Of a stretch of DNA of 64,000 nucleotides, positions 3,788 through 37,782 are shown piece by piece. Source of the stretch: a virus. Lineage: Duplodnaviria; Caudoviricetes. A model generated the notes under the pieces. The model did not search any database. It was not told the DNA's origin and was given only the letters and a program-made list of their open reading frames with translations. Position 1 is the stretch's first letter. Each line of letters opens with the position of its first letter. Where the stretch lies: IMG/VR virus record IMGVR_UViG_3300025120_010521, one strand, 5' to 3'. Position numbers and translations under genes: made by a program.

Positions 3788-4207
3788 TTAGGCCTCCCTT
3801 TGTTTATTATTAATAGTAGCATAGGATTCCAGTTTGTCAACCGGAAAATTCAAACTTAATTGTTTCCATAAATCGCCAGTTTGCTTCTTGGCATCTTCTA
3901 CGGCTTCCCATATCACATCATCATACCAATACTCTTCTTTCTTTTCAATTATGCTTTCAGCATGATCATCTTTGTAATACAATCCACCTAGGTTGGCATT
4001 ACCCATTTCATGTCCTTTGAAATATGCTTTTGCCCAAAAGCCAAACCATGCATCATAACCTGCATCGATTCTCTTAGCCATTTCATCTGTGTCTGTTTCA
4101 TCGCAGTACAATTCATTAGGATGTATATCTTCATAGAAGTATCCTACACGGACCTCGAAGCCATCTTTGTTGTGACGGAGATCTTTAACTTCATAGAATT
4201 CAGACAT
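3788..4207 (-). CDS. Hypothetical acidic early protein (likely start MSEFYEV at 4207)
   Basis: ORF track 3788..4222; TAATG overlap with the upstream gene favours the 4207 start. Confidence 0.7.
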   Translation of the reverse strand: MSEFYEVKDLRHNKDGFEVRVGYFYEDIHPNELYCDETDTDEMAKRIDAGYDAWFGFWAKAYFKGHEMGNANLGGLYYKDDHAESIIEKKEEYWYDDVIWEAVEDAKKQTGDLWKQLSLNFPVDKLESYATINNKQREA

Positions 4208-4557
4208 TAAGCTACCTTCCATTCAAATTCATCTGTAGACCATTCTGTGTCTTCATAATCAATACTGTCACTATCTTCGTATGGGATACATTCAGCTACT
4301 TTAACAGCTTCAAATGATTGTGTTGAGTCTGTGTTATAATCTTGTGCATAAACCTCAACCGGTTCGTTATCATGATATCCTTCTAACCATTCAATTTTTT
4401 CTATGCCACCATGATCGATAACAGCATCAACTGCCTGGTCTTTGTTTGTAGCAACCACATCGTATTCTACCCAAACATTGTAACAATGTCTAACTCTAAA
4501 CTTTTGTTTACCGATATCCTTGTGTGGATTCTCTTTACCGTATTCTTTTTTTGACAT
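4207..4557 (-). CDS. Hypothetical acidic early protein
   Basis: ORF track; TAATG coupling. Confidence 0.7.
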   Translation of the reverse strand: MSKKEYGKENPHKDIGKQKFRVRHCYNVWVEYDVVATNKDQAVDAVIDHGGIEKIEWLEGYHDNEPVEVYAQDYNTDSTQSFEAVKVAECIPYEDSDSIDYEDTEWSTDEFEWKVA

Positions 4558-4757
4558 TATGCTTCTCCTCTGTTAGAAATTAATACAGCAGACCCTGTAA
4601 CAAACATTGTAAGTCCAATGCCTGCAAACATTAGCATCTCGCCAATTGTGTTAGCCTGTTCAACGCATTTACCATCACAGTCTCCTGCGGAACCTGCCAT
4701 CATTACAATACCTACGAATACAAGTAATGTTGCTATTGTGTTTATTATAAGTTTCAT
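4557..4757 (-). CDS. Small two-TM membrane protein
   Basis: Two hydrophobic segments flanking GDCDGKC; AAAGGAAC RBS and early promoter upstream. Confidence 0.75.
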   Translation of the reverse strand: MKLIINTIATLLVFVGIVMMAGSAGDCDGKCVEQANTIGEMLMFAGIGLTMFVTGSAVLISNRGEA

Positions 4758-4834: not shown

Positions 4835-5200
4835 TTAAATGGCAACATTTTCAGTTATGCTCCATATGGGATCATCCTCATATGCTTCCCAATACAGCCC
4901 TTTGTCTGCTTCTAGTTTATACCACAGCTCTTCGATCTCCTTATATTCTGCTTCTAGGTCTTCCCTAGACATCTTGTGAAAGCCTCTAAAGCCACCCTCT
5001 AGTATATAAGTGAGAGTTGAATAGTCACCTTCGTTGAAGTCATTGTATATCTTTGATGCTTCAACTTGTAGACATCGTTCAGCCATTACATAGTGTGACA
5101 ACACCATTGCCCTACTATCTTCATAGTAGGGATCGTGTTCTTCTTGGTCGTTCAAGTTTGCAGGCAATGTGCCTAGTGGATCAAATCGTTCGTTAGCCAT
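4835..5200 (-). CDS. Hypothetical acidic early protein
   Basis: ORF track; coupled to the upstream gene. Confidence 0.7.
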   Translation of the reverse strand: MANERFDPLGTLPANLNDQEEHDPYYEDSRAMVLSHYVMAERCLQVEASKIYNDFNEGDYSTLTYILEGGFRGFHKMSREDLEAEYKEIEELWYKLEADKGLYWEAYEDDPIWSITENVAI

Positions 5201-5789
5201 TCGCTTGTTCCTCCTTTTGGTCTTCTTCCCATTGCGCCAAGTTCTCTACACAACCCATGTAGTCATCTATCAACTTGCCATCTTCTGTTTGCCAAAACTC
5301 TGAGTCTGACTTTGGTGCATCTTCGCTACACATATAACAACGGTCATCCATGTCTTCCCAAACTCCCATAAAGTCACAGCCCGGTTCATAGTAGACAGCA
5401 CGGATTGACATATCATCATTGTTGGATATGTAATGTTCGTACGCACCGATCGGTGGGGCCCATGCAGTATCAAAACCAAACACCACTCGCTTGTCACCAT
5501 CGTCTTTGCCAAACAGCTCTTCTTGTTCTTGTATAGATCCATCATAGATGTCACAATCCCATTTGGTAGACCAATTGCTTGTTCTCCAATCGTACCAATT
5601 GTTGTGTCCATCCACTACAGGTTGTTTCTTCATCACTTCATCGTCCGAAGTGCTTTGAGTATCTTCTAGCTCTTTAGGCATAGGGTAAAGTGTATTGATG
5701 AACTCTCCCTTCTTTGCACCAGCTATTAACTTGTCGACCTTTGCTTTGGGTCCTACTATTTCTATATTGTTGTTGCACCAGTTCGGCAT
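5193..5789 (-). CDS. DUF1281/YubB-like ferredoxin-fold protein
   Basis: MPNWCNN, WYDWRxxNWxTKWD, FDTAWAPP, YYEPGCDFMG motifs. Confidence 0.75.
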   Translation of the reverse strand: MPNWCNNNIEIVGPKAKVDKLIAGAKKGEFINTLYPMPKELEDTQSTSDDEVMKKQPVVDGHNNWYDWRTSNWSTKWDCDIYDGSIQEQEELFGKDDGDKRVVFGFDTAWAPPIGAYEHYISNNDDMSIRAVYYEPGCDFMGVWEDMDDRCYMCSEDAPKSDSEFWQTEDGKLIDDYMGCVENLAQWEEDQKEEQANG

Positions 5790-5890
5790 ATCTGCTCCTT
5801 TATAATTGTTTATATATTTAATATAGCATAGGATCCTATTATGTCAACCTCTTTTTGCAAATAAATGCTGAGGTTTTAATAGGGAGCGAA

Positions 5891-5914
5891 GGTGCGTTGT
5901 TTTAACGCACCCCC
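5891..5914. repeat. Hairpin at the left edge of the GR-free tract
   Basis: GGTGCGTT-gtttt-AACGCACC; core GTTGTTTTAACGCA matches 7925-7938 at 13 of 14 positions. Confidence 0.7.
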
Positions 5915-5924
5915 ATGCACATGC

Positions 5925-6353
5925 TTATGCAACTAATTTTCTATGTTTGTCTTTGCAGTATACATCCAAACTTAAATAGTCCTCACCCTGCATACCCTGT
6001 TCGCTACCACCAGCTTCCAATAGCTTGTTTGTGCGTGTGTGTATTCTCTCGTTTATTGCGTCATTTAATGCGCCAGTATATGCAAGTCCACTGCCTTTTA
6101 CATAATCCAAATGTACAGTGCCTTCCCATATACTAATCTCATTGTCCCCATACTCGTCACTACAGTCAATTGCTGTCTCTAACGTTAGCTCGTCATTTGT
6201 TACAGCACAGTCACCCCAATAGCCTGCTTCGTAGTTGCCAGCAAAGCCACCTCCTAAGTTAACACTTATGTAATAAATTTCTCTGTCATCCTCAGCGTCA
6301 GTTGTTACTGTTACGTGCTGTAGTGCTTGTAGTTGTTTTACTAATGTGTGCAT
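5925..6353 (-). CDS. Acidic, proline-free early protein (GR-free cassette gene 3)
   Basis: ORF track; GGAAGGAAC RBS and promoter; coding strand has no TC or CC dinucleotide. Confidence 0.8.
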   Translation of the reverse strand: MHTLVKQLQALQHVTVTTDAEDDREIYYISVNLGGGFAGNYEAGYWGDCAVTNDELTLETAIDCSDEYGDNEISIWEGTVHLDYVKGSGLAYTGALNDAINERIHTRTNKLLEAGGSEQGMQGEDYLSLDVYCKDKHRKLVA

Positions 6354-6412
6354 GTTTGTTCCTTCCTTTGTTATATTATTAATGTAGCATACTTGTGCAT
6401 TTTGTCAAGTGT

Positions 6413-6868
6413 TTATTTAAGTTTTTTAATAATGTCCTCCATGTCATCGTTGTTGTACTTGCCACACTTTGTACAAGCAACATCGCCGTCGCAGTTCTCT
6501 GTTACAACTTCGCAAGTCCAATCAAAGTCCCCTTCCACTCTGTTGTTAATACAATCTAAACCATCCATACCATCGTATACAAAATGTTCTTCCAACAGTT
6601 CCTTAACTTGTTCTAACGTTGTTGCTTCTCTTATCTCAGCAACAGCATCTGCAACGTACTCTTCTTGTTTATCCACAAAGTCTGCATAGTCTCTTTCGTC
6701 TATGTGTTTCTCACCGCAGTGTTTACATTTCCAATCACTACATTCGTACACGCCATCCACTATGTCTTTAATTCGCTGTGCACCTTGTTTGCTTGTGCTT
6801 ACTGTAATCGTTTCTTTGTTGCCTAAAAAATATTCTTCGCCGTCTTTGTAACTTTCCCATTTTTGCAT
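6413..6868 (-). CDS. Acidic, proline-free protein with CxxC pairs (GR-free cassette gene 2)
   Basis: CKHC and CTKC motifs; AAAGGGAC RBS; no TC or CC on the coding strand. Confidence 0.8.
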   Translation of the reverse strand: MQKWESYKDGEEYFLGNKETITVSTSKQGAQRIKDIVDGVYECSDWKCKHCGEKHIDERDYADFVDKQEEYVADAVAEIREATTLEQVKELLEEHFVYDGMDGLDCINNRVEGDFDWTCEVVTENCDGDVACTKCGKYNNDDMEDIIKKLK

Positions 6869-6883
6869 GTGTTTGTCCCTTTG

Positions 6884-7060
6884 TTATATTATAAATGTAT
6901 TGTTTTTGTATTGTGCAAACATACTTTTTATGTGCTGTTGCTTTGTTGTGTAACACATACGTGTGTCTGCTTGTAAACGCACAATTGTTTTTTCAAGTTG
7001 TGCGTAAGTTTTTATAGGCAGTTTGTAGTATACGGGTTTTGCTGTTTTACTGTTGTACAT
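6884..7060 (-). CDS. Small basic protein, 58 aa (GR-free cassette gene 1)
   Basis: Manual translation MYNSKTAKPVYYKLPIKTYAQLEKTIVRLQADTRMCYTTKQQHIKSMFAQYKNNTFII*; AAAGGAAC RBS; promoter at 7093-7120. Confidence 0.7.
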   Translation of the reverse strand: MYNSKTAKPVYYKLPIKTYAQLEKTIVRLQADTRMCYTTKQQHIKSMFAQYKNNTFII

Positions 7061-7135
7061 TATTGTTGTTCCTTTGCTTTTGTTATATTATTAATATAGC
7101 ACAATTGTGCATATTGTAAAGAGGGTAAATGCATA

Positions 7136-7169
7136 GGGGACAGTGTAATGTTGTCCCCAACATTACACT
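7136..7169. repeat. Overlapping alternative inverted repeats between back-to-back promoters
   Basis: Perfect 12-bp AGTGTAATGTTG-tccc-CAACATTACACT (7142-7169), overlapping GGGGACA...TGTCCCC (7136-7158). Confidence 0.8.
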
Positions 7170-7196
7170 TGACAGTTTGCAAAAAGATGTTATACT
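7169..7196 (+). promoter_or_regulatory. Rightward sigma70-like promoter, antisense to 7195..7545
   Basis: TTGACA-N16-TATACT with extended TG. Confidence 0.6.
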
Positions 7197-7545
7197 ACGC
7201 GGCTTTTGGAAACTCTATCTTGGTTGGTTCCCAGTAGATGCCATCATCGGAATAATGCCATTCACCCTTCATGTGTATAAACAGACCCTCAAGGTCCTCT
7301 GTGTTCTTTACACCACTTAGGCGTGTGCATAAAGGATCTCCCAAACCATCAACATGTCCGTGATCTTTTAGGTTCCACTGTGCCAGGTGTACAAAGTACT
7401 TGGCAGTTTCTAGAGTTGGTGCAACCTCTTCTAGTTGACGTGCTAGTTCCTCAGCAGTTTTCTTTTGGTACAGCGTAGAGGTAACGTCATATTCGCTGTA
7501 AGCCACTCTAAAGTTTTTTATTTGCATGTGTGCTCCTTTGTTCAT
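7195..7545 (-). CDS. Hypothetical early protein (likely start MQIKN at 7527)
   Basis: ORF track; AAAGGAGC RBS; promoter at 7552-7579. Confidence 0.7.
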   Translation of the reverse strand: MNKGAHMQIKNFRVAYSEYDVTSTLYQKKTAEELARQLEEVAPTLETAKYFVHLAQWNLKDHGHVDGLGDPLCTRLSGVKNTEDLEGLFIHMKGEWHYSDDGIYWEPTKIEFPKAA

Positions 7546-7615
7546 ATGTTTATAGTAGCACCATTACGCAATGTGTCAAGCCCCTAATTGGCCAAAAAGA
7601 TTTAAATTATTCTGG

Positions 7616-7643
7616 TTGACACAATAGGAACCTATGTTATTAT
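7616..7643 (+). promoter_or_regulatory. Rightward early-type promoter firing into non-coding DNA
   Basis: GGTTGACA-N16-TATTAT; no convincing downstream ORF. Confidence 0.7.
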
Positions 7644-8087
7644 TAATAATAAGATAAGGGAACAGAAACTTTATCCGCCGGTTGTAATTAACTAGAACCA
7701 AATAAATCTAGAAAGATAAAATCGATACTCAAAGGATGGGCCGAACTCTGACCTAAATACCATGGCACATTATATAGTCCCCCATCGACTATATCTAGTG
7801 AACCACAACAGCAGTTAGTCTGTTCTTCACGGTTAAACCATTGAAATTATTAGTCTTTTTATCTACTAGATGTTGTGTCGTGCTGTATCGATATGGCACA
7901 CACTGTAGTACCATTAAGTAGGGTGTTGTTTTTACGCAACACCCCCTCGATCTCTCATGTGCTGTTTGTTGTTTTTGTGCAACACTTTTAGACTAGTTGT
8001 TGCATTTCTGCAACACCTCTCAAAATCCTTAAATTCTGAGCTAGGTCCCGAGTCTCTGGAACCTATTCTAAACTCTCCGTTCGCCAC

Positions 8088-8201
8088 CTTTGAACCTCTT
8101 TGAAGTCCCAATGAACCCCTTGAAGCCTTTGAGCCCCATTGACGTCTCATTGATGCATTGAAGTCATTGAAGCCCTACAGTGTCTTTGAACCCTTTGAAC
8201 C
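8088..8201. repeat. Degenerate tandem repeats of about 10-nt period (TTTGAAc/gCC-like), iteron-like
   Basis: TGA cores at 8091, 8101, 8112, 8121, 8130, 8140, 8151, 8159, 8168, 8187, 8196. Confidence 0.7.
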
Positions 8202-8358
8202 GATCGTACTCCAGAGAACTTAATCTCAGACTCTCGGGGCTCTATACGGAGTGTTCCCAAATATGCAACTGATCGCACACCGATGTTCTGGGTACTTGGT
8301 TGTTTACGTGCAGTGATCGATGCCCGCCGTAAAGGCCACCCATGTATTGTTATTTACT

Positions 8359-8389
8359 AGTATATACTCATATAGGCCAACTGTCAACC
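8359..8389 (-). promoter_or_regulatory. Leftward early-type promoter firing into non-coding DNA
   Basis: GGTTGACA (-35 at 8382-8387)-N17-TATACT on the minus strand. Confidence 0.6.
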
Positions 8390-8539
8390 CCAAAGAGGCC
8401 TCTACTACATATAGTGATGGCCACAGCACTGCCCATGAGGCATAGACCGCATGCTCAAGACTAGATATAGTGGTGGCCAAATTAAATGGGGTCATTTAAT
8501 CATGACTACATGTTGTGGTGGCCTCAAACCCCGTATAAG

Positions 8540-8582
8540 CTACAGCGGGGTCCCAGGTATAGCCAACCCCTACAGCGGGGTC
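8540..8582. repeat. 13-bp direct repeat CTACAGCGGGGTC, two copies 30 bp apart
   Basis: 8540-8552 and 8570-8582; partial third copy TACAGCG at 8591. Confidence 0.8.
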
Positions 8583-9099
8583 ATAGTGGTTACAGCGTAT
8601 ATAGTGAGTATAGGGGCAATTGATCAGGGGCCCAATCGTATGTGCTACGCCGTGCGTATGAGTTTACGATACGCACAAGAGCACATATGAAGCCGGAGGC
8701 TAGATCAGAATGATCTATTTCAGACAGCAACAGCTGATTGCCCCACTATCAGGAAGCGATGATCAATGGTGGTTACACGGTTGATAATGGTTAAGAGGCC
8801 ATGGTTATAGCGTAGGTAAATTGGTTTTATCGTCTTCAGATACGGGTAATGAGAGACACGGTTTTACCTTTTGGGTAGGAACTTTCTATCCACATTGTGT
8901 ATACAAAAACAGACTAATCTGTGTAGTGTTTATACCCCAAAATCGCTTCGTACGGTACCTGTAAAATAGCTTTCTTTTTAGTTCATACTGAAAGGATATA
9001 TGCACAATCCACATTGCTTCACTGTGTGTCATGCATTAATGCTGTGTTACAGTCACTCTAGACTAATAGTGTAGTGATCAAGTGTGTGTATGTGTGCTA

Positions 9100-9288
9100 C
9101 TAGCTTATGCCAAATGGGTTATGCTGTGCTTCGTACTGTTCTTTTGTGATATCGTCTATTACTATACAGTCGTAATCTTCACCTAGTAGTTCGTCGAATC
9201 GTTCTTGTATCAGCTTCTTTGTTGAGTATGCACAGAATTCTTCTAATACGATATTGCCTTTGTATGCGTATACGAAACAGTAGTGCAT
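9100..9288 (-). CDS. Small hypothetical protein
   Basis: ORF track; TAATG coupling with the upstream ORF. Confidence 0.6.
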   Translation of the reverse strand: MHYCFVYAYKGNIVLEEFCAYSTKKLIQERFDELLGEDYDCIVIDDITKEQYEAQHNPFGIS

Positions 9289-10571: not shown

Positions 10572-11672
10572 TTACCTTTTAATTATGCTTTTTATATCAG
10601 GATTATGTGCTGTGGAACATTTTTCATTACAGGTTATATAGGATCTATTGTTCCATGCTGACTGTAGCTGAGAAAAATACTTTGAATTTAATATATCTGT
10701 TATTGAATCTTGTGAATAAATTGAATGAATTTCTGGATCAAGTCCTTGTGAAAATGATGAAGCACCTTCTTTGAGGCTACGATCAGTCCCCATCCAACAG
10801 CAAGGAGTAATAAATCCATGTGCTGTGATAAAAAGACTTCGTTTAATTATGCTATTTTTTTCTAAAGCCTTGCAAAAAATGGTATCTTTTTTTACTGTTG
10901 CTGTGGTTTTGGGCATAGAAAATGGTGGTATTTTTTTATTAATTGGTGTATTTTTTATTTGATTGCTAGTATCATGCTGTATATATTTTTTCTTTGGGCT
11001 TTTATCAATTTTAATCTGTGGATTTTTTCTGTTGCTGTTGATTATTTTAATAGAATTAAATCCCCAGGCTTTATAATTGGATTCAATTTCATTTAATTGA
11101 TGTTCATTATGATCAAATACAATAATTTGCCATGTTGAATTACCACCTGCTTGATTATATGCTGTATAATTCTCTTTTAATTTATTCCAATTAACACCTT
11201 TGCGATAGATATGATTTGTATCTTCTAGGCCATCTATACCCCATACAACTCTTAAATCAATATTTTTTTGTTTTAATTGATTGCTTTTTTCTCCTAATTG
11301 TTTCCACCATTCTCTATCTCTAGTACCACCGTTGGTAGCAATACTAATAGACTTTGCTTGTGGTAGATATTCTACAGTATAATCAATAAATTGCATAATT
11401 TTTGGATGTACAGTTGGTTCGTCATAGTTTCCACAATAGTGTATTTCACGTAGACTTTCCCATTTATCATTTGTAATCATTTTTTTGTATCTGTCTATAT
11501 TTAAATGTGTTGAATTTATGCTGACTGGGTATGGTGATTCTTGTTTGTATCCTTTAAGCCAATCTGAATTTAAATAGTTTACTCTTGCACAATGAGGACA
11601 ACCAGCATTACAATAATTTGTAAGCTCTATTTGTAAACGTGTAATTTGATCTGTTTTAAGTGCCCAAGACAT
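10572..11672 (-). CDS. Radical SAM protein with C-terminal SPASM/twitch domain
   Basis: ELTNYCNAGCPHC (CxxxCxxC), GNYDEP, ATNGG, GIDG; C-terminal GFITPCCW...CNEKC. Confidence 0.9.
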   Translation of the reverse strand: MSWALKTDQITRLQIELTNYCNAGCPHCARVNYLNSDWLKGYKQESPYPVSINSTHLNIDRYKKMITNDKWESLREIHYCGNYDEPTVHPKIMQFIDYTVEYLPQAKSISIATNGGTRDREWWKQLGEKSNQLKQKNIDLRVVWGIDGLEDTNHIYRKGVNWNKLKENYTAYNQAGGNSTWQIIVFDHNEHQLNEIESNYKAWGFNSIKIINSNRKNPQIKIDKSPKKKYIQHDTSNQIKNTPINKKIPPFSMPKTTATVKKDTIFCKALEKNSIIKRSLFITAHGFITPCCWMGTDRSLKEGASSFSQGLDPEIHSIYSQDSITDILNSKYFSQLQSAWNNRSYITCNEKCSTAHNPDIKSIIKR

Positions 11673-11685
11673 ATAACTATTTATG

Positions 11686-12036
11686 GAGTGCTAGAATGCA
11701 TAAACCCCGGACTTAGGATGCATTAAGCATCAGCCGGGGAAAAAATCAAAAACATTTTTTCACAAATGAAGACCTAAAGTCTTCTAAGGTTATTATTGTT
11801 TATAACGGTAGCTTAAATTTAAAAGCCTTTTTAAACCTGACTGCCTTGCAGTGCTCTTGGGTTGCTTACTACCAAACATAACCTAAACGAATAAACAAAG
11901 TTTATTCAATAAACAAAGTACATCTACGGCGTCTGTTAGCTTATGCTATATGCCTCGTCTTTGTTGTTACTCAAGTAATAATAGTTATCGCCTTGTAGGC
12001 TACATAAAAACATCTTAGAACTCTATATATAGAGTT
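11686..12036. ncRNA. Candidate structured intergenic element or ncRNA
   Basis: CCCCGG/CCGGGG crossing AATGCAT/ATGCATT; GAAGAC/GTCTTC hairpin; CTACGGCG/CGCCTTGTAG stem; perfect 18-bp palindrome at 12019-12036. Confidence 0.45.
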
Positions 12037-12052
12037 TTAATTCAAAAAAGAT

Positions 12053-12712
12053 TTACAGTTTACCAAAGCCCCATAGTCTTTCTTCACACCACCAGCATTT
12101 ACCACAATGCGGAGTAATTGAAGGATCTAATTCTGTTTCCTCACATGTCCTTGTTACATTAAATAAAGTGTCCATTAAGTTATACTTCTTATAAAGTTCT
12201 GCAACACCTTTCTTATCAATATTAACAAGTATTCTTCCATGTGCTGTGTCTTTTCTTTTCTGTTCTTTATCACGACCTGGAGATGGTTCGTCATTTGGGT
12301 CATCAGGTGACCACTGTTTATAAACTTCTATTGGAGGGTTAGCTGTAACACCACTAAACTTACAATCTATAATTTTGTTTTTAGTTAAGATACTTTGTAG
12401 TTCTTCCATACGTTCGTTATAATCACTACCGTCTGAATGTATTGTAAAATGTTCTTTATGCCATCTAACATTAGGGAACTCTCTTTTTAACCACCATTTA
12501 ACTTTAGAAGCATACCATATATTATGAGGTTTTAAACCATGTATGACTGTAAATGGTACAATGGTACAGTCTGGTCGATGATCACGTATGTACAAGCAAA
12601 TTAGATAGGCTACAATGGATGAATCTAGTCCACCGCTCAACTTTATACCAATGTTTCTTTTGTTTGAATCAACGTTTATTTCTATTGTATCTTGTGATGT
12701 TTCTACAATCAT
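12053..12712 (-). CDS. QueC-like PP-loop ATPase (7-cyano-7-deazaguanine synthase-like)
   Basis: IKLSGGLDSS PP-loop; C-terminal TRTC...HCGKCWWCEER zinc site as in QueC. Confidence 0.7.
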   Translation of the reverse strand: MIVETSQDTIEINVDSNKRNIGIKLSGGLDSSIVAYLICLYIRDHRPDCTIVPFTVIHGLKPHNIWYASKVKWWLKREFPNVRWHKEHFTIHSDGSDYNERMEELQSILTKNKIIDCKFSGVTANPPIEVYKQWSPDDPNDEPSPGRDKEQKRKDTAHGRILVNIDKKGVAELYKKYNLMDTLFNVTRTCEETELDPSITPHCGKCWWCEERLWGFGKL

Positions 12713-12865
12713 TTTTTACCTTTTTACTTTTACATATTTATTATTAAAACTAGTGCAAGAATCCATTAACAGAAGTTTATTAATTAAAGTGGTATGTTTG
12801 ACTACTACTAAATTACAGTAAATATATATGTAGGTTGAGCAATCTACAAATAATGGGAGAGCAGA

Positions 12866-13462
12866 GTGGACAAAATAATTTTAACAGATATTGATGGAGT
12901 TGTCTTTGATTGGCATACAGCATTCGTAAAGTGGATGGAATTGCAAGGCTATTCTTCTACAGGAGTTATACATCATGACGCAGAAATACAAAACGAGTTT
13001 GGTATTTCTTTACAAGAAGCTACTGTGAAAAGAGAAGAGTTCAATGCCTCTATGGCTTGTTCTGTTTTAGAACCAATGAGACAGTCTGAAGAATATATTA
13101 AGAAGCTACACGAAGAAGGTTATCATTTTATTGCTATTACATCATTAAGTGATAAACCGATTGCACAATATTATCGTTACCTAAACATTGAAGATTACTT
13201 TGACACTGATGTATTTGTTGATGTAAGATGTTTACCAGCTGGCGCACCTAAACTAGATGCTATGATGGACTTTGAAAACAGCGGATTAATATACATTGAC
13301 GATAGAATTTCTAACTTAGAAGACGCATTAAAGGTTGGATTAAAGCCTGTACTAATGAAACATGCTTACAATATTCACTACGCAAATAAAAATGTACACC
13401 AGGTTGCTAACTGGAAAGACATCTACGATTACGTTACACAGACGTACAAAAACAGCAAATAA
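12866..13462 (+). CDS. HAD-family 5'(3')-deoxyribonucleotidase-like phosphatase
   Basis: LTDIDGVVFDW motif I, ITSL, YIDDRISN motif IV. Confidence 0.8.
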   Translation: MDKIILTDIDGVVFDWHTAFVKWMELQGYSSTGVIHHDAEIQNEFGISLQEATVKREEFNASMACSVLEPMRQSEEYIKKLHEEGYHFIAITSLSDKPIAQYYRYLNIEDYFDTDVFVDVRCLPAGAPKLDAMMDFENSGLIYIDDRISNLEDALKVGLKPVLMKHAYNIHYANKNVHQVANWKDIYDYVTQTYKNSK

Positions 13463-13502
13463 ATACATTTACGTATAGATATATCAATACTAGAGAAAAA
13501 CT

Positions 13503-14651
13503 ATGACAAAAAAATGGTGTAACGCAGGAACGTCTCATATATGGCTTAGACATGACAGGAAAATAACACCATGTTGTGCCTTAGGTGAACCAATGGAATT
13601 TAACCTAGACAAGGACGGAGACTTTCTAAAAAAGATGCAGTCTTCGGAATTCATTAAAGCAATTGAGCCATTAGCTAACGGTCCGTTACCTAAAGGTAGA
13701 TGCGACCAGTGTCTTTCTCAAGACAGTGCAACAACAACAGAAAATAAAAGATCTAGATCAGTTAGACATAAAATTAATCACTTTTCTAATCCAGTAATTG
13801 GAGCTCATGGAAAACAGAATAACAATCCTTTCTTTTTAAAAATTGACTTTTCAAACAAATGTAATTTAAAATGCGTAATGTGTAATAGTAAAAGATCAAC
13901 CGGTTGGGTAAAAGACGAGCAAAAACTTTCTGAACTTGGTATGTTTCCTAAAAAAGCAATAAGTTCATATGATAAGTTACCAGACAAGTGGTGGTTAAGA
14001 AATAGTAAACAATGGTGGGAGTCAGTAACCAAAGTTGAAATATCAGGCGGGGAACCTTTTTATGAACCTATGCTATTTGAATTTTTAGAGTTTCTATTAA
14101 GTATAGGAAGAAGTAGTATTAATCTTTCAATCATTACTAATCTTACATTATATAATAAAAATATTGATACTATTTTAAGAAAGTTTAAAAACGTTGACCT
14201 ATTATGTAGTGTTGATGCTTGGGAACAAGATGTCTATCAATATTCAAGAGGAGGCATATATACTTTAGAAACAATAAAAGAAAATATCAAACAACTATCT
14301 AAAGTAGCATCAAGATTAAGTATAGTAGACACAATACATTGTACAACGTATGATCAATCTAAACTAGCTAAAAAATGGATTAAAGAACAAAACCTTGATA
14401 ATGTATATCATAATGTAAACTATGTATATACTCCAAGACACTTAGATGTAAGATCGGTATTGCCAGACTCTATGTTAGAAACAAATAAAGATATTAAAAT
14501 TCCACAATCAGGTTTTAAAAAAGAAAAACAATTACAACATAAATTTTATAACTGGATTAATGCACTTGATAAAGTGAGAAACACAAACATACTAAACATA
14601 AGACCAGAATTTGAATCTTGGTTTAAAGAAATTGAAACATGGGCAAAGTAA
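13503..14651 (+). CDS. Radical SAM protein with N-terminal twitch/SPASM-like domain
   Basis: WCNAG...ITPCC; FSNKCNLKCVMC; ISGGEPF; ITN; SVDA. Confidence 0.9.
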   Translation: MTKKWCNAGTSHIWLRHDRKITPCCALGEPMEFNLDKDGDFLKKMQSSEFIKAIEPLANGPLPKGRCDQCLSQDSATTTENKRSRSVRHKINHFSNPVIGAHGKQNNNPFFLKIDFSNKCNLKCVMCNSKRSTGWVKDEQKLSELGMFPKKAISSYDKLPDKWWLRNSKQWWESVTKVEISGGEPFYEPMLFEFLEFLLSIGRSSINLSIITNLTLYNKNIDTILRKFKNVDLLCSVDAWEQDVYQYSRGGIYTLETIKENIKQLSKVASRLSIVDTIHCTTYDQSKLAKKWIKEQNLDNVYHNVNYVYTPRHLDVRSVLPDSMLETNKDIKIPQSGFKKEKQLQHKFYNWINALDKVRNTNILNIRPEFESWFKEIETWAK

Positions 14652-15922
14652 TAGCAATAGACAACGATATACAAAATCCTTATTCATTTGAAGTTACATG
14701 GGATTTAGGATTAAGATGTAATTACGACTGTACCTATTGTCCTGCACATAGACACAACAATACTTCTTCACATGCAAGTTTAGAAACATTAATTAAAACA
14801 AGTAAATTTGTTTTTGAGTATAAAAAATTAATGCAATCACAAATGACTTTTGATAGACAGTGGAATATTGGTTTTACAGGTGGGGAACCAACTAACAATC
14901 CAAACTTCTTAGAAATGTGTCAATACATACATGCACAAAATGATCCAGACGTATTAGTTGATGTTACTACTAATGGAGCATTTAGCCAAAAGTATTGTGA
15001 TAAACTTATAGAAGCTGTTGATTCTATTACAGTAAGTTATCATTGTGAAGCAAAACAAAAGATAAAAGATAATGTAGTTGCAAGAATATATCAGTTACAT
15101 AACTCAGGAATCAAATATAAAGTTAATTTGATGGTACATGCTAAACCAGAATACTTTGATGAATGTATGAAGCTCGTTGATAGGTTTACAGACGATAATA
15201 TAAAGTTTGTACCTCGTATCATTGGTGAAAGCTATGAAGATAGTAAGTATGTACATCGATATACTCCGGAACAACATGCATGGTTTAGAAACTATTGGAC
15301 AAATAAAAACAAAAAAATAAACAAGCCTGATGCAAATAAAGATGCAGAGTATGAATATAAAGATGATCAAAAGAAAGTACAACAACAAAAACAAGTTGTA
15401 CATACTCTAAAAGAAAAACCAAAAGTAGTAAAAGAAATATCACCAAAACCAAAAGAAGTCAATACAAGAAAAGCATTAGGAAGACCTTGCTGTGGGCAAA
15501 GAACTTTTTATACACTAGATGAAGATCAATATAAGAAAGACAATGTAAAGCTAGATACTAATGATTGGAAAAAATCTGTATTTGCGTGTTCAACTGAATA
15601 TAAAGAATGGTCATGCATGATAAATTGGAATTGGCTACACATTGAACAAGAGTATAATAAAATATTACATCATCAAACATGCAGAGCAAATTTTGGAGGT
15701 AAGAAGGGAGAGATAGGAACTATTACTGAGTGTGATCAAATAATAAACAAACTAGAAAAACAGTTTGCTACCGGAACTATGCCAGTGATAACTTGTCCAA
15801 ACAAAGTTTGTGGTTGTGGTTTGTGCGTACCTAAAGCACAGCATCACGATATAACTAAAGCAATGTTTAAAAAATCAGTAAAGAATCTTACTCCTGTAAT
15901 AGGTGGTACATTGAATGCATAA
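14639..15922 (+). CDS. Radical SAM protein
   Basis: WDLGLRCNYDCTYC; FTGGEPT; VTTNG; C-terminal CPNKVCGCGLC. Confidence 0.9.
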   Translation: MGKVIAIDNDIQNPYSFEVTWDLGLRCNYDCTYCPAHRHNNTSSHASLETLIKTSKFVFEYKKLMQSQMTFDRQWNIGFTGGEPTNNPNFLEMCQYIHAQNDPDVLVDVTTNGAFSQKYCDKLIEAVDSITVSYHCEAKQKIKDNVVARIYQLHNSGIKYKVNLMVHAKPEYFDECMKLVDRFTDDNIKFVPRIIGESYEDSKYVHRYTPEQHAWFRNYWTNKNKKINKPDANKDAEYEYKDDQKKVQQQKQVVHTLKEKPKVVKEISPKPKEVNTRKALGRPCCGQRTFYTLDEDQYKKDNVKLDTNDWKKSVFACSTEYKEWSCMINWNWLHIEQEYNKILHHQTCRANFGGKKGEIGTITECDQIINKLEKQFATGTMPVITCPNKVCGCGLCVPKAQHHDITKAMFKKSVKNLTPVIGGTLNA

Positions 15923-17123
15923 AGACTATCAAAAGTTTATTAAAGAACACGGTAATTCTTTTTGTGTGTTGCCTTTTACAGAAATATGTAATACAGCACA
16001 AGGACACGGGCAATTGTGTTGTTTTTCAGATACAATAGATTCAGACATGTACAATAATCAAATAATTGATACATGGAAAAATAATAACGTTCTAAATAAT
16101 ATAAGAGAAAAAATGTTAAGTAACAAACCTATTAAAGAATGTCGTAGGTGTTATCAATATGAAAAAGACGGAGCATATTCATTAAGTAAAAGACTTAATC
16201 AATCAATTGAAATAGAAAATAAATTTCCGGGAACGGTACAAAAAATAAAAGAACAAGGTGGCTTAACACTTAGAACTTTAGATCTAAAGTTTGGTAACAA
16301 ATGTAATCTTGCGTGTGTAATGTGTGATGGACATAGTTCTTCCTTACATACAAAAGAAAAGCAAAAATACCCTGTGCCTAATGATCTAAAAGAATTAATA
16401 GTATCAACCGGTGAAGACAATGACTTTGATAGAAATAACTTACAAGAGTTATTAGAGCAGGCACCAAACTTACTAAGATTAAAGTTTACAGGTGGCGAAC
16501 CAACATTATTAGATGGGTTTAAAGAATTTATACAAAAACTTTCACAAACATCATATGCTAAAAACATAGAAGTTATTATTGTTACAAATGGCACAACTGA
16601 TGTAACTAAATGGATACCTATTTTTAGTAAGTTTAAACTTGTAGATATAAACTGGTCTACAGATGGTATAGGTAGTACATTTGAATATATTAGATGGCCT
16701 GGTAAATGGGAAAAGACAAAACAAATACAGCAATCATTTAATGAAACTATTAAACAATATAGTAATATTAAGTCAACACTAACGTCAGCAATACAATTAT
16801 TAAATTTAGATCAATTGCCAGACTTATTAAAATATGGTAAAGAATATAACTTTACTAAATTTTCACCGGTACTAGTTATGTGGCCTGAAGCACTTAATAT
16901 TGGTATTGTTCCAAAAGAAATAAGAACACAAATAATAAAAGAATGTCAACCTTACATTGAAACATATCCGCAAGTAAAAAGTTTTACAAGCATTATAGAA
17001 AAAGCAAACAGTCATTTAACATGGAAAGACACAAAAAACTTTTTATCCTACTATGATCATATTAGAAACTATTCAGCGAAAGACATGTGTACAATATATA
17101 ATAAAATTAATAGTAGAGTATAA
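15915..17123 (+). CDS. Radical SAM protein with N-terminal twitch domain
   Basis: FCVLPF...QLCC...CRRC; GNKCNLACVMC; FTGGEPT; VTNG; STDG. Confidence 0.9.
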   Translation: MHKDYQKFIKEHGNSFCVLPFTEICNTAQGHGQLCCFSDTIDSDMYNNQIIDTWKNNNVLNNIREKMLSNKPIKECRRCYQYEKDGAYSLSKRLNQSIEIENKFPGTVQKIKEQGGLTLRTLDLKFGNKCNLACVMCDGHSSSLHTKEKQKYPVPNDLKELIVSTGEDNDFDRNNLQELLEQAPNLLRLKFTGGEPTLLDGFKEFIQKLSQTSYAKNIEVIIVTNGTTDVTKWIPIFSKFKLVDINWSTDGIGSTFEYIRWPGKWEKTKQIQQSFNETIKQYSNIKSTLTSAIQLLNLDQLPDLLKYGKEYNFTKFSPVLVMWPEALNIGIVPKEIRTQIIKECQPYIETYPQVKSFTSIIEKANSHLTWKDTKNFLSYYDHIRNYSAKDMCTIYNKINSRV

Positions 17124-17295: not shown

Positions 17296-17369
17296 TGGTA
17301 GCAGTGATGAGAATTGAACTCATAACTCTAGCTACTGAGACTAACGTGTTACCACTACACTACACTGCA
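17296..17369 (-). tRNA. Atypical tRNA: anticodon loop CU-CAG-UA, short variable loop, U1-U72 mismatch
   Basis: Cloverleaf TGCAGTG-TA-GTGT-AGTGGTA-ACAC-G-TTAGT-CTCAGTA-GCTAG-AGTT-ATGAG-TTCAATT-CTCAT-CACTGCT-A-CCA. Confidence 0.75.
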
Positions 17370-32161: not shown

Positions 32162-32189
32162 AAGGTAGGGTATTAATTTACCCTACCTT
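32162..32189. repeat. Palindrome GGTAGGGTA-N6-TACCCTACC, copy 1
   Basis: 11-bp stem AAGGTAGGGTA/TACCCTACCTT between convergent genes. Confidence 0.85.
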
Positions 32190-33396
32190 AATTATTTGCT
32201 TTATTTGAAATATCTTTTTCAACCCGTGTAACAGTTTTCTTACTGCATATTCTTTTACACATTTCCATATTTTCAAAATTATCCATTATTTTTTTAAATG
32301 CAGGACCGTTTATTATTTCTTTATATGTATTTTTGTAAATGCTCATTGACTCGGCATCCTGCTTTGTAATTCCTGCTTGATCAAAAGTCCATTGTTGGTC
32401 AACTCTCATGAAACAACATGGCAAAAATAATCCTTCACTAGATATAAAATTAGCATAATTTTTTACGTTCATACATTGTGGATACACATTTTCTGTTTGT
32501 ACAATGTCTACTTCATCTTTAGCTAATGGCAATGTTCCGTATGATCTTTTTGCTTTACTACCTTCTGGTAGCTTAACTATGTCTATTGCATTAGACTGTT
32601 TTATTTTAGTTAGCTCTGCACCTGCTTCTCTATTCCATATATATTTTGGCTTTGGTTCTTCTTTTTTACGTTTTGCCAATACTGCTGTTCTTGGAGTGAT
32701 ATTAATTGTTAAATCTGTTACTTTTGTTTTCCAACTATCAGGGCCACTTTTTAAATCATTTACATACAATTCTAATTGATCTAGACTTTGATTAAATTCT
32801 TTTTTATTTACTAATTGTCCAACTGGTGCTCTATGAGTATCAATCAATTCAAAATATGTAAACCCAATTTCGTTAGCTATATCAAATGCAGTCTTCATAT
32901 CGTTGTAAGAATTGTTATATTTAAAAACAATGTATTTCCATTTTATACGTCTATTCTGTTTTGCTAGTATTTCTGTCCCAACTTTAATACTTGGCCAATC
33001 AGCATTGACTCTATATTGTGTAAAGTTTTCTGGTGTTCCATCTAAACTAAATGTTATTAGATCTGAATTTGTCATTAGGTCAGCAATTTGTTCCCAGTCT
33101 TTTGCTTTTCTATAACTACCGTTGGTGTCCATCATAAAGTTAATATTGGCTTCTTTGATTGCTTTTAAGGTCTTTACAAGGTGGGGATGATACAATCCGT
33201 CACCGTAGGCTCCAGTTAATAGTATTTTGGTTACTGGTAGTAGTTTTAAAAAGTCTATTAATTTATCAGCATCTATATGTCCGTTATCCCATAAATGTCT
33301 TTTGTCTGCTTGAAAGGTACGGGGACAGTTAGGACATTTAATTGTGCATTTACTAGTTAACTCTAGCTCTAAAGTATTAGACTCAGGGAATTTCAT
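32188..33396 (-). CDS. Radical SAM protein with C-terminal SPASM/twitch domain
   Basis: ELTSKCTIKCPNC; GAYGDG; DTNGS; FSLDG; FLPCCF...CKRIC. Confidence 0.9.
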   Translation of the reverse strand: MKFPESNTLELELTSKCTIKCPNCPRTFQADKRHLWDNGHIDADKLIDFLKLLPVTKILLTGAYGDGLYHPHLVKTLKAIKEANINFMMDTNGSYRKAKDWEQIADLMTNSDLITFSLDGTPENFTQYRVNADWPSIKVGTEILAKQNRRIKWKYIVFKYNNSYNDMKTAFDIANEIGFTYFELIDTHRAPVGQLVNKKEFNQSLDQLELYVNDLKSGPDSWKTKVTDLTINITPRTAVLAKRKKEEPKPKYIWNREAGAELTKIKQSNAIDIVKLPEGSKAKRSYGTLPLAKDEVDIVQTENVYPQCMNVKNYANFISSEGLFLPCCFMRVDQQWTFDQAGITKQDAESMSIYKNTYKEIINGPAFKKIMDNFENMEMCKRICSKKTVTRVEKDISNKANN

Positions 33397-33737: not shown

Positions 33738-33814
33738 TGGCCTGCCCGGCAGGATTCGAACCTGCAACCTACGGTTTAGAAGACCGTTGCTCTGTCCTGT
33801 TGAGCTACGGGCAG
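33738..33814 (-). tRNA. tRNA-Arg(UCU)
   Basis: Cloverleaf, loop CTTCTAA, encoded CCA. Confidence 0.95.
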
Positions 33815-33997
33815 ACAATAACTTACTTTTTCTTTTTCTTTTTACTGCCCCATCCGTATTTTTTATTAATAGTTTCTGGATCTGACCTTCGCATAGGTGG
33901 ACAAGTTGTTGGTTTATTATTTTTTAACCATTTTTCAATTAAAATTTTATCTTCTAATGTTATTTGTGATCTAGTCAATTTAGTTAATCCTTATGTT

Positions 33998-34084
33998 TGG
34001 TGCGAGTGGAGGGACTTGAACCCACACATCATGATTGATAACGGATTTTAAGTCCGTTGCGTCTACCTATTCCGCCACACTCGC
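33998..34084 (-). tRNA. tRNA-Leu(UAA)
   Basis: Loop CTTAAAA, long variable arm, encoded CCA. Confidence 0.95.
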
Positions 34085-36492: not shown

Positions 36493-37689
36493 TTAGTTAA
36501 AGTTATAGTGTTTGCTTATCTCTGGAAAATGTTTTGAAAAATCTAAGTTTCTTGTTTTATCAATATTTTTTATTTTTTTAACAAATCCTTGAGTAGCTGA
36601 TTGATCTGTTTTTGTATCTAATCTTTTTAATATTTGTTGAGACTTATCTAAAAATACTTCTTTTTGTTTTAATGGCAGTGAGTTAGCAAACTGGTAAAGA
36701 TTATCCTTTGCTTCTTGCTTTAGTTCTTGTGGCATGTGTTCCATGTTATACTCATTACCTTCAACCATATTAAAATCGTAAGTATCTAAATTACTATCTA
36801 AGAAAAACTTTATTAGTTTTGTAAAATGAATAGCATTATAAGTTCCAATTGTTATCTGCGGTTCTACCCATATATTAGGATTGTCTCTTAATTGTAATAG
36901 GTTTTGTTCTAGTTGGTTCCATATCGTACCATATCTAATATATTCTGCTTGTGGTCCCATAGCATCTATACTTGGTGCTATACTAACTCTTTTAAAATGT
37001 TTCCACAACTCTGTTGTATCTTTATTCTTGTGTGTTAGCTTTAGGATATTACTATTGTAATGTAAATTAACATCTGTTCTTTTAATGTCTATTAACTTTT
37101 CTAGTATATAGTAGTGTTCGTCCATTACTAACGGTTCACCACCTGCAAAATAAATTGACTCTACATTTTTAGCATGGTTATCTATAAACTCATATGTTTT
37201 ATTTTTATCATCAAAATTGTTTAATATTTTGCCTTTGTCTGATTTCAATTCTGCCTGCCATTTACTACTAAATTCTGGACCGCACATAATACAAGCCATA
37301 TTACATATATTACTAAAACGTACATCCCAATACTTTGCAGATACTTCTGTTAAAGTTCCATCTTCTTTAGTAATATCTTTTATTGTATTTTTTACTTCTT
37401 TTGTCCATGGATGGTATTTTTCTAATATTGTTCTAAAACTTTCTCCTAAGACTTCTTCTTTTCTATAACACCTTTCGCAACCTTTTGGTTCAAGATTATT
37501 CATCATTTCTTTACGCATAGTTTTAGCTTTAGGAGAATTTATAATTTCTTCGTAGCTTTGCGTCTTAATGTTACCCCAAAAATTATTTGCTGTCCAATGT
37601 AAACAACATGGCATAACTGTTCCGTCTGGGTTTGTGCTTAATCCAATCCAAGGTAATGGGCACCATGTGTCTAATATCTTTCTGCTCAT
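36493..37689 (-). CDS. Radical SAM protein with N-terminal twitch domain
   Basis: CPLPW...VMPCC...CERC; SNICNMACIMC; FAGGEPL; YNSN; SIDA. Confidence 0.9.
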   Translation of the reverse strand: MSRKILDTWCPLPWIGLSTNPDGTVMPCCLHWTANNFWGNIKTQSYEEIINSPKAKTMRKEMMNNLEPKGCERCYRKEEVLGESFRTILEKYHPWTKEVKNTIKDITKEDGTLTEVSAKYWDVRFSNICNMACIMCGPEFSSKWQAELKSDKGKILNNFDDKNKTYEFIDNHAKNVESIYFAGGEPLVMDEHYYILEKLIDIKRTDVNLHYNSNILKLTHKNKDTTELWKHFKRVSIAPSIDAMGPQAEYIRYGTIWNQLEQNLLQLRDNPNIWVEPQITIGTYNAIHFTKLIKFFLDSNLDTYDFNMVEGNEYNMEHMPQELKQEAKDNLYQFANSLPLKQKEVFLDKSQQILKRLDTKTDQSATQGFVKKIKNIDKTRNLDFSKHFPEISKHYNFN

Positions 37690-37702
37690 ATAATGTATTT
37701 AT

Positions 37703-37779: not shown

Positions 37780-37782
37780 TCT

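What the first reader, a model, noticed from the sequence alone, without database searches (positions are those of the whole stretch)
5889..7121. Strand-specific dinucleotide-free early cassette: no GA for about 1.23 kb and no GA or GG for about 1.13 kb on the template strand
Seen directly by line-by-line reading. The + strand has no GA from 5889 to 7121 and no GG from 5892 to 7017, so about 170 consecutive Gs (manual count) are all followed by C or T. Flanking DNA has GA or GG every 10-20 nt, and the same strand is rich in TC and CC, so the effect is strand-specific. The + strand is the template for the three genes here. Their coding strand lacks TC and CC: Ser is only AGY, Phe only TTT, and two proteins (142 and 151 aa) contain no Pro. 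The only GG exceptions are the two Pro codons of the 58-aa gene. The exclusion also covers the untranscribed promoter spacers at 6387-6402 and 7099-7114, whereas the six early-promoter spacers to the left all contain TC or CC. That points to a DNA-level rather than RNA-level constraint. Established, from recollection: 7-deazaguanine DNA modification in coliphage CAjan is placed at GA and GGC contexts, and bulky template-strand adducts can stall RNA polymerase. Inference: the phage hypermodifies G in GR contexts (or the paired YC) genome-wide, and keeps a modification-free template for its first-expressed genes so that unaltered host RNAP can read them. The acidic and Zn-ribbon products could then adapt RNAP or block defence. 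Alternative: avoidance of a host enzyme attacking YC on the displaced strand (DarT-like or deaminase-like). I know of no description of such a zone.
Basis: partly seen in the sequence, partly recalled or inferred. Interest (0 to 1): 0.96.

Follow-up and report, generated by a model that had tools for sequence, protein, structure and literature searches.

The report
Early phage genes lacking pyrimidine-C dinucleotides
A 1.2-kb block of three small early genes in an uncultured marine giant phage has been recoded so that its mRNA strand holds almost no TC or CC. The same exclusion recurs in related phages and is kept by selection. It most likely hides these transcripts from a factor that reads pyrimidine-C, with termination factor Rho the best candidate.

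Summary
The + strand has no GA at 5889-7121 (1233 nt; next-longest GA gap in 64 kb is 219) and no GG at 5892-7017. All 171 Gs there are followed by C or T. On the coding (minus) strand this is a ban on TC and CC (YC). It is met by recoding: Ser only AGY, no NTC or NCC codons, no YC at 348 codon junctions, Pro almost absent. C content is unchanged.

The ban is under ongoing selection. 20 metagenome contigs keep it, and about 8.4 YC-creating changes were expected against none seen. YC-free cassettes of 0.6-2.4 kb, always on the sense strand, occur in at least 9 related lineages of uncultured marine jumbo myoviruses. Pooled over 13.3 kb there are 9 YC against about 970 expected, and no other dinucleotide is affected.

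CAjan, which is modified at GA and GGC, has no such zone.

The mechanism is not settled. My best guess (0.35) is a transcript with nothing for Rho to bind, since Rho's primary sites each bind 5'-YC. The rivals are a template strand free of DpdA-type modification or nick sites, a YC-specific RNase, and an ssDNA cytosine deaminase. I found no published description. This scan noted it only on this window.

The parts
5889..7121 (-). TC-free zone on the coding (minus) strand, seen as GA-free on the + strand. It runs from the base next to the -35 hexamer of the first promoter to the 3' arm of the closing stem-loop.
   Evidence: The same boundaries hold in 20 metagenome contigs.
5892..7017 (-). Core with neither TC nor CC on the coding strand (no GA or GG on the + strand); 171 Gs, none followed by A or G.
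6884..7060 (-). 58-aa basic protein gene, first of the cassette. It holds the only CC exceptions (two Pro codons, + strand GG at 7017-7018 and 7034-7036). It is deleted in variant L019 without loss of the void.
6413..6868 (-). 151-aa acidic protein gene with two CxxC pairs (zinc-ribbon-like). No Pro. Only near-identical relatives were found. An analogous 104-aa CxxC protein sits in the YC-free unit of L032.
   Evidence: single-sequence AF2 model poor
5925..6353 (-). 142-aa acidic protein gene, a member of a large family (more than 160 clusters) from marine metagenomes. 105 of 120 listed members have no Pro. Confident AF2 model without a known fold.
7093..7120 (-). First early promoter: -35 TTTACA (7115-7120), 16-nt spacer, -10 TATATT (7093-7098), followed by the conserved ATATAACAA leader box.
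   Evidence: sequence reading; not tested experimentally
6381..6408 (-). Internal early promoter of the 142-aa gene: -35 TTGACA (6403-6408), 16-nt spacer, -10 TACATT (6381-6386).
5891..5911 (-). Stem-loop that closes the unit (GGTGCGTT / AACGCACC, no U-tract). The first CC after the void lies in its 3' arm.
7136..7170 (-). Stem-loop that ends the upstream unit (116-aa gene 7195-7545), just before the first promoter of the cassette.

Best explanation
The cassette is a set of immediate-early transcription units whose RNA has been purged of 5'-YC (UC, CC) by selection. As a result, a factor that reads YC on single-stranded RNA cannot act on these transcripts.

The one well-established reader of exactly this dinucleotide is termination factor Rho. 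Each of its six primary binding clefts holds one 5'-YC. A transcript whose Cs all follow purines gives Rho nothing to load on, so host RNAP would finish these genes even when the RNA is naked. That would be the case in the first moments of infection, or when translation lags or is shut down. The products could then act before any other phage function exists. They are small acidic, zinc-ribbon-like and basic proteins of unknown function, in a hypervariable early region typical of take-over or counter-defence genes.

Shown: the exclusion, its strand, its specificity to YC, its maintenance by selection, and its recurrence in related phages in both gene orientations.

For: 1. Specificity. In 13.3 kb of pooled void zones from at least 9 lineages there are 9 YC against about 970 expected. 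The other 14 dinucleotides lie at 0.76-1.47 of flank frequency. C content in the window's zone is unchanged (15.6% vs 16.0%), with AC and GC enriched. So YC is avoided, not C. This matches Rho's cleft, which takes a pyrimidine followed by cytosine (PMC6144790, read).
2. The void is always on the sense strand, whichever way the genes point. L046 and G001 hold divergent YC-free units.
3. It covers 5' UTRs, coding sequence in all frames, codon junctions and 3' UTRs up to a hairpin. In three lineages it starts only downstream of a TC in the promoter spacer, so it tracks the transcribed region.
4. Selection is ongoing. The zone has 79 variable sites among 13 haplotypes. About 8.4 YC-creating changes were expected and none is present (P about 1e-5). 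Three multi-base changes avoid YC jointly.
5. The phages belong to T4-related jumbo myoviruses. The capsid gene of G002 is closest to Vibrio phage 2.275.O and to 350-kb jumbo phages of Yersinia, Erwinia, Serratia, Escherichia and Sinorhizobium, so the hosts probably have Rho. In T4, Rho restricts in vitro transcription to immediate-early RNA (PMC2988021).
6. RNA-library contigs from four marine metatranscriptomes cover 5908-6658. They were not shown to be RNA-derived, since DNA can be present in such libraries.
Against: The host is unknown. If it is a cyanobacterium, which lacks Rho by established knowledge, the idea fails.

Rho needs several YC within 60-80 nt, so isolated YCs should be harmless. 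Yet even single Pro codons are purged, which fits a per-site hit (cleavage or lesion) better.

Neighbouring early units with the same promoter type are not depleted. In L032 the 142-aa homologue has an early-type promoter and 13 YC.

T4 (first 50 kb) and the closest isolate, Vibrio phage 2.275.O, have no such zone although their hosts have Rho.

Translating ribosomes should shield coding RNA from Rho, yet coding sequence is as clean as the UTRs.

Nothing here separates an RNA-level cause from a template-strand DNA cause.
Confidence: 0.35

Rival explanations
1. DNA-level protection of the template strand. The phage's DpdA-type enzyme replaces G in GA/GG contexts with a 7-deazaguanine derivative. 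These bases, or lesions or nicks made at them by a host enzyme that attacks modified DNA, or by a frequent-cutting nickase, stop RNAP only when they lie on the template strand. A GR-free template keeps a few first-response genes transcribable.
For: Published DpdA motifs are GA plus GGC (CAjan, PMC7544227) and GA (iggy, PMC10484667). Unchecked notes on the same genome list FolE, QueD, QueE and a TGT/DpdA-like gene. There is a weak QueC-like gene at 12053-12712, with a counterpart in void-bearing G001. The closest isolate has neither TGT nor a void. A per-site block explains the completeness of the void and its uniformity over UTR and coding sequence.
Against: CAjan, modified at GA and GGC, has no void. 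All GG types are excluded, not only GGC. Other early genes of the same genome have GA and GG at normal density on their templates. 7-deaza substituents lie in the major groove and are not known to block RNAP (my own knowledge). The promoter-spacer argument does not hold. No TGT was found in five void-bearing fragments, but these lack the PolB region where the gene is said to lie, so this is uninformative.
Confidence: 0.18
2. Immunity of the mRNA to a YC-specific RNA-cleaving or RNA-modifying enzyme. This could be a host defence effector or toxin, or the phage's own shut-off RNase. The messages for the antidote or first-response proteins would survive while other RNA is destroyed.
For: A per-site lethal hit explains the purge of even single Pro codons and the uniform void over UTR and coding sequence. 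It also explains why only one small cassette per genome is affected, with one locus in each of G001 (101 kb) and G002 (155 kb). The first YCs after the void lie in hairpin stems in the window and in L032. MazF-resistant ACA-less messages are a precedent in principle (my own knowledge).
Against: I know of no RNase with plain YC specificity, and none turned up in the literature searches. Lineages that stably carry one or two YC inside the cassette (L036-38, L039-41) should lose the benefit. In L032 the 142-aa homologue is not protected.
Confidence: 0.15
3. Avoidance of an ssDNA cytosine deaminase (APOBEC- or DddA/SsdA-like, which typically prefer 5'-TC or 5'-YC) or another ssDNA-modifying enzyme. 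Such an enzyme would attack the displaced non-template strand of the most heavily transcribed early units before replication starts.
For: The dinucleotide class and the strand fit: the non-template strand is the exposed one. The void starts near the -10 region, where DNA melts.
Against: Damage to the non-template strand does not stop expression. The cost is mutation or breakage, which should weigh on all strongly transcribed early genes, not on one cassette. It is not decay by deamination, because C content is unchanged and T is not raised. I found no described anti-phage ssDNA cytosine deaminase of this kind.
Confidence: 0.1
4. No function: a compositional accident, a recent transfer from a genome with odd composition, or a past burst of hypermutation.
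For: None beyond the fact that the cassette lies in a hypervariable region.
Against: Chance is about 1e-19 or less. C content is preserved and RC dinucleotides are raised. The void persists through 79 variable sites and through 45-55% protein divergence in other lineages, and in both orientations.
Confidence: 0.02

Closest known systems
Rho utilisation (rut) sites and the Rho primary binding site, which is specific for 5'-YC
   Same: The same dinucleotide class (pyrimidine followed by C), read on the nascent RNA, hence strand-specific and limited to transcribed DNA. T4-type early transcription is known to be Rho-sensitive (PMC6144790, PMC2988021).
   Different: Known biology is about the presence of YC-rich, C>G tracts that recruit Rho. 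A kilobase-scale, complete absence of YC as an evasion device has not been described as far as I could find. Known phage answers to Rho are proteins or RNA elements (lambda N and Q, HK022 put, P4 Psu; my own knowledge), not recoding.
DpdA-dependent 7-deazaguanine DNA modification (CAjan: GA and GGC; iggy: GA)
   Same: The motif set on the + strand (GA, GG) overlaps the published insertion contexts. The genome is reported to carry the pathway (unchecked notes).
   Different: Those phages modify both strands genome-wide. CAjan has no motif-free zone. Nothing known links the modification to transcription.
Restriction-site avoidance and strand-biased site orientation in phages (for example GATC-less Staphylococcus phage K, and EcoP15I sites all on one strand in T7; my own knowledge)
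   Same: Selection removes short words from phage DNA.
   Different: Those cases are genome-wide, involve 4-6-bp words and mostly affect both strands. Here a dinucleotide class is absent from one strand of one cassette.
ACA-less messages resistant to MazF (my own knowledge)
   Same: A message freed of a short word escapes a sequence-specific enzyme.
   Different: That case is a trinucleotide with a known RNase. Here no YC-specific RNase is known.
Promoter-early stem-loop (PeSL) cassettes of T4-type phages (my own knowledge)
   Same: Small novel ORFs, each with its own early promoter and often a stem-loop, in a hyperplastic region. Cassette content varies between relatives (2 to 7 genes).
   Different: No dinucleotide exclusion has been reported for PeSLs. 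The first 50 kb of T4 shows none.

Membership tests
Rho-evading (rut-free) transcript | No 5'-YC ligands for Rho's primary binding site on the RNA | tested here: met
   0 YC in 1126 nt, and 4 overlapping-pair counts at two Pro codons in 1233 nt; 9 in 13.3 kb pooled
Rho-evading (rut-free) transcript | The host possesses Rho | tested here: inconclusive
   Host unknown. The capsid gene of relative G002 groups with jumbo phages of Proteobacteria. No psbA in five related fragments. Unchecked notes mention AOX and BtuB-like genes.
Rho-evading (rut-free) transcript | Rho terminates YC-containing but not YC-free versions | not testable with these tools
   Needs in vitro or in vivo transcription assays
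DpdA / 7-deazaguanine-modified phage DNA with a modification-free zone | A dpdA (TGT-family) gene and the preQ0 pathway in the genome | tested here: inconclusive
   Only a weak QueC-like hit in the window (PF06508, 23 bits). The rest rests on unchecked notes. No whole genome is held.
DpdA / 7-deazaguanine-modified phage DNA with a modification-free zone | Modification placed at GA and GG | not testable with these tools
   Needs LC-MS or nanopore/SMRT data from virion DNA
DpdA / 7-deazaguanine-modified phage DNA with a modification-free zone | Phages with a proven GA/GGC modification show such zones | tested here: not met
   CAjan: longest GA gap 160, longest GR gap 98, longest YC gap 112
Deaminase hypermutation footprint | Loss of C and gain of T at YC | tested here: not met
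   C 15.6% vs 16.0% in the flank; T 22.3% vs 25.7%; AC and GC enriched
T4-type early promoter cassette (PeSL-like) | A sigma70-type early promoter before each small ORF, with stem-loops at unit ends | tested here: met
   TTGACA/TTTACA-N16-TAnnnT plus a conserved ATATAACAA leader before the genes; stem-loops at 7136-7170 and 5891-5911. By sequence reading only.

The most novel reading that the evidence does not exclude
A clade of abundant marine jumbo phages keeps one 'stealth' cassette. Its sense strand is completely free of pyrimidine-C, so that its first-expressed genes are untouchable by a YC-reading host or phage factor: Rho, or a still unknown YC-specific nuclease or modifying enzyme. This would be a new, purely sequence-encoded way of escaping termination or defence. 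It is detectable by a simple scan, and it marks the genes inside as the phage's first-response (anti-Rho or anti-defence) proteins.
Probability: 0.6. Interest if true: 0.9.

Novelty: categorically new. Interest (0 to 1): 0.88.

Why it matters
Selection strong enough to remove every TC and CC, and with them nearly all proline, from whole transcription units means that one dinucleotide on one strand is dangerous for these genes. Whatever reads it is a major and so far unnoticed force in the first minutes of infection in the sea.

It also gives a direct natural test of the YC rule for Rho loading.

In practice the void is a sequence-only marker. A dinucleotide-gap scan can pick out candidate first-response genes in uncultured phages. 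More than 160 clusters of the 142-aa family alone are found in marine metagenome assemblies, Tara Oceans among them.

Tried and rejected
- Identity of the phage: megablast and tblastn of the cassette against 50,697 phage records found nothing. No whole genome is held. The ENA contig behind L012 could not be searched.
- Function of the three proteins: no Pfam hit. For the 142-aa protein the AF2 model is confident (pLDDT 86.6), but Foldseek against PDB and AFDB and VIA-align wide gave nothing above Z 5. The ESM Atlas gave no lead. The single-sequence model of the 151-aa protein is unusable (pLDDT 45).
- Chance, and decay by deamination: rejected.
- A codon-usage or tRNA explanation: rejected, because codon junctions and non-coding parts obey the ban too.
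- DarT1 (guanine ADP-ribosylation): no consensus motif is known (PMC11543638), so it gives no support.
- A general property of deazaguanine phages: rejected for CAjan.
- A general property of T4-type phages: not seen in T4's first 50 kb or in Vibrio phage 2.275.O.
- Rfam on the gene-free region upstream, in the window and in L036: no family.
- TGT search in void-bearing fragments G001-G005: negative but uninformative, since they lack the PolB region.
- Complex prediction (a cassette protein against Rho) was not run. The host is unknown and I do not claim binding.
Full report
**1.

On the + strand there is no GA from 5889 to 7121. The gap is 1233 nt, and the next-longest GA gap in the 64-kb window is 219. 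There is no GG from 5892 to 7017: that gap is 1126 nt, and the next is 395. No other dinucleotide shows anything similar. The 171 Gs in the core are followed by C 56 times, by T 114 times, and never by A or G. With the window's own frequencies, such a GA gap anywhere in the window has a probability near 1e-19. The + strand of the zone is rich in TC and CC, so the effect is confined to one strand.

**2. Anatomy**

The zone holds three minus-strand genes: 58 aa (6884-7060), 151 aa (6413-6868) and 142 aa (5925-6353). Seen from their coding strand, the rule is: no TC, and no CC except in the two Pro codons of the 58-aa gene.

The zone begins at the base next to the -35 hexamer of an early promoter: TTTACA at 7115-7120, a 16-nt spacer, then TATATT at 7093-7098. 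It ends in the 3' arm of a stem-loop at 5891-5911. A second promoter of the same type sits before the 142-aa gene (6381-6408). All early units here share a conserved ATATAACAA leader box.

**3. How the rule is met**

C content is unchanged: 15.6% in the zone against 16.0% in flanking genes on the same strand. AC and GC are raised, with odds ratios of 1.66 and 1.41. The codon figures are as follows.
- Ser is 12/12 AGY.
- Phe is 7/7 TTT.
- There is no ATC, GTC, CTC, ACC or GCC.
- Pro is 0, 0 and 2 in the three proteins.
- None of 348 codon junctions is YC, against 5% in the flanks.
- TAC, AAC, GAC and GGC are preferred.

This is recoding under selection. It is not loss of C by deamination, and it is not a codon or tRNA effect, because junctions and non-coding parts obey the rule too.

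**4. Selection is ongoing**

The exact 142-aa protein and a 96%-identical variant of the 151-aa protein are encoded on 20 metagenome contigs from many marine samples, and all of them keep the void. Thirteen haplotypes differ at 79 sites in the zone. That is 6.4% of sites, against 21.5% in the flanks. Given the observed substitution spectrum, about 8.4 changes should have created a YC. None is present (P about 1e-5). Three multi-base changes avoid YC only in combination.

**5. The void recurs in related phages**

The 142-aa protein belongs to a family of more than 160 clusters in marine metagenomes, and 105 of the 120 listed members contain no Pro. At 44-55% protein identity the genes again lie in YC-free stretches, together with unrelated small genes.

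| Locus | YC-free stretch |
|---|---|
| L033-35 | 815 nt |
| L036-38 | 282+467 nt |
| L046 | 684 nt |
| L047 | 943 nt |
| L049 (G001) | 1496 nt |
| L051 (G002) | 1722 nt, plus 723 nt with three YC |
| L054 | 1969 nt |

In L046 and G001 a minus-strand unit is YC-free on its own coding strand, next to plus-strand units that are YC-free on theirs. So the void follows the direction of transcription.

Two contigs could be read whole: G001 (101 kb) and G002 (155 kb). Each has one such locus, and no other Y/R dinucleotide class has a gap above 210 nt.

Pooled over 13.3 kb there are 9 YC where about 970 are expected. All other dinucleotides stay within 0.76-1.47 of the flank frequency.

Synteny is kept. 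The cassette lies upstream of a gene that starts MPNWC (window 5193-5789; G002 4037-4612) and downstream of a gene-free region of 1-1.5 kb.

Some relatives lack the void. These are L044 (GC 48%), the 71%-identical homologue in L032, and more distant homologues. In L032 it is the neighbouring CxxC and basic-protein genes that are YC-free. The trait therefore belongs to transcription units, not to one protein family.

**6. What phage this is**

The window has no match in the phage collection. The capsid gene of relative G002 is closest to Vibrio phage 2.275.O (349 kb). After that come the 350-kb jumbo phages of Yersinia, Erwinia, Serratia, Escherichia and Sinorhizobium, among others. CheckV completeness values imply genomes near 350 kb. 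First-stage notes on the same genome describe T4-like late promoters and T4-like capsid-targeting leaders (unchecked). The host is unknown. No psbA was found in five related fragments.

**7. Level of the constraint**

That does not hold.
- A promoter outside the zone (7579) lacks YC too.
- In L033, L036 and L039 the first promoter of the cassette has a TC in its spacer, and the void starts only at about -17 to -10.
- In G001 and G002 the void can run on through the next promoter and 5' UTR, up to the start codon of a normal gene.

The void thus tracks transcribed DNA and its short AT-rich leaders. That is equally compatible with an RNA-level cause and a template-strand cause.

**8. Candidate mechanisms**

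*(a) Rho.* Each primary binding cleft of the Rho hexamer holds a 5'-YC, and rut sites are C>G tracts with YC dimers spaced 9-13 nt apart (PMC6144790). In T4, Rho limits in vitro transcription to immediate-early RNA (PMC2988021). A YC-free RNA that keeps its Cs behind purines is what one would design to be invisible to Rho. This matches the dinucleotide class, the strand and the transcript-wide extent.

Several points count against it.
- Rho needs several YCs, so isolated ones should be tolerated, yet they are purged.
- Ribosomes should shield coding RNA.
- Neighbouring early units are normal.
- T4 (first 50 kb) and Vibrio phage 2.275.O have no void.
- The host is unknown.

*(b) Template-strand protection linked to 7-deazaguanine.* DpdA motifs are GA and GGC, or GA alone (PMC7544227, PMC10484667). 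The genome is said to carry the pathway. The window has a weak QueC-like gene, as has G001. Against it: CAjan has no void, all GG types are excluded, and other early genes are not protected. The TGT searches in fragments are uninformative.

*(c) Immunity to a YC-specific RNase or RNA-modifying enzyme.* This explains the per-site stringency and why only one cassette is affected. No such enzyme is known.

*(d) An ssDNA cytosine deaminase on the displaced strand.* The class and the strand fit. The cost would fall on progeny rather than on expression, and it should affect all strong early units.

*(e) Accident or hypermutation.* Rejected.

I rank them (a) 0.35, (b) 0.18, (c) 0.15, (d) 0.10 and (e) 0.02. 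The remainder goes to something not thought of.

**9. Expression and products**

Contigs from four metatranscriptome libraries cover 5908-6658. In one (X16) this is the only part of the 6-kb stretch that assembled, and in another (X18) it is the main part. This is consistent with transcription but is no proof, and it gives neither strand nor transcript ends.

The 142-aa protein folds confidently (pLDDT 86.6), with a core made mostly of beta strands plus helices, and it has no significant structural neighbour. The 151-aa protein has two CxxC pairs but could not be modelled. Function remains unknown. The setting is a hypervariable early cassette with acidic and zinc-ribbon-like small proteins. 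That suggests host take-over or counter-defence, which is inference.

**10. Novelty**

Literature searches for strand-specific dinucleotide avoidance in phage early genes, and for Rho evasion by sequence, found no description. The phenomenon is a complete exclusion of one dinucleotide class from the sense strand of whole early transcription units. It is conserved across diverged lineages of abundant marine phages. I consider it new. Its mechanism is open and can be tested directly.

Noticed in passing
window 8087-8201 (within the gene-free stretch of about 7600-9288): A tandem array of about 12 units of 9-11 nt (consensus CCTTTGAAC / TCATTGAAG on the + strand). Read as + strand RNA it is C-rich, G-poor and weakly structured, with YC dimers about every 9-10 nt, which looks like an idealised rut site. 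Read as minus-strand RNA it is G-rich and folds better than shuffles (z = -3.2). It could equally be a set of protein-binding repeats (iterons). An RNA-library contig covering 7948-8230 has the highest depth of the 6-kb stretch in run X15. Related lineages have only a pair of TCATTG units 9 nt apart, just upstream of their first cassette promoter.
   Followed up: partly
window about 7600-9288; L036 1412-2976; L039 4864-6001; L033 1-1035: A region of 1-1.5 kb without called genes lies directly upstream of the YC-free cassette in several lineages. It is conserved within lineages (80-92% between L033, L036 and L039) but not between them and the window. There is no Rfam family. Many metagenome contigs end there.
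   Followed up: partly
window 5925-7060 (coding strand): NAC and GGC codons are preferred inside the cassette (TAC 14/22, AAC 12/16, GAC 20/33, GGC 11/25) relative to the flanks. NAC codons are read by queuosine-bearing tRNAs, and the genome is said to carry a TGT-like gene and preQ0 genes. This may be only compensation that keeps C content constant.
   Followed up: no
window 10572-17123, 32188-33396, 36493-42742, 54562-61780: An unusual number of radical SAM genes (at least ten with Pfam or PHROG support), several with SPASM domains, plus a carbamoyltransferase (49516-51000) and an NT5C-like nucleotidase (12866-13462). This looks like a large tailoring or modification repertoire.
   Followed up: partly
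L022 and L023 (variants of the same phage), about 4.0-4.9 kb downstream of the 142-aa gene: Some strains carry a polysaccharide lyase gene (PF14099) and a Rick_17kDa_Anti-domain gene in the place where the window has a 398-aa ORF (879-2075). So there is strain-level cassette exchange downstream of the cell-wall hydrolase gene (2138-2782).
   Followed up: no
window 17296-17369, 33738-34084, 37703-38015: Seven tRNA genes: Leu-CAG, Arg-TCT, Leu-TAA, Arg-GCG, Gln-TTG, Met-CAT and Ile-GAT.
   Followed up: no
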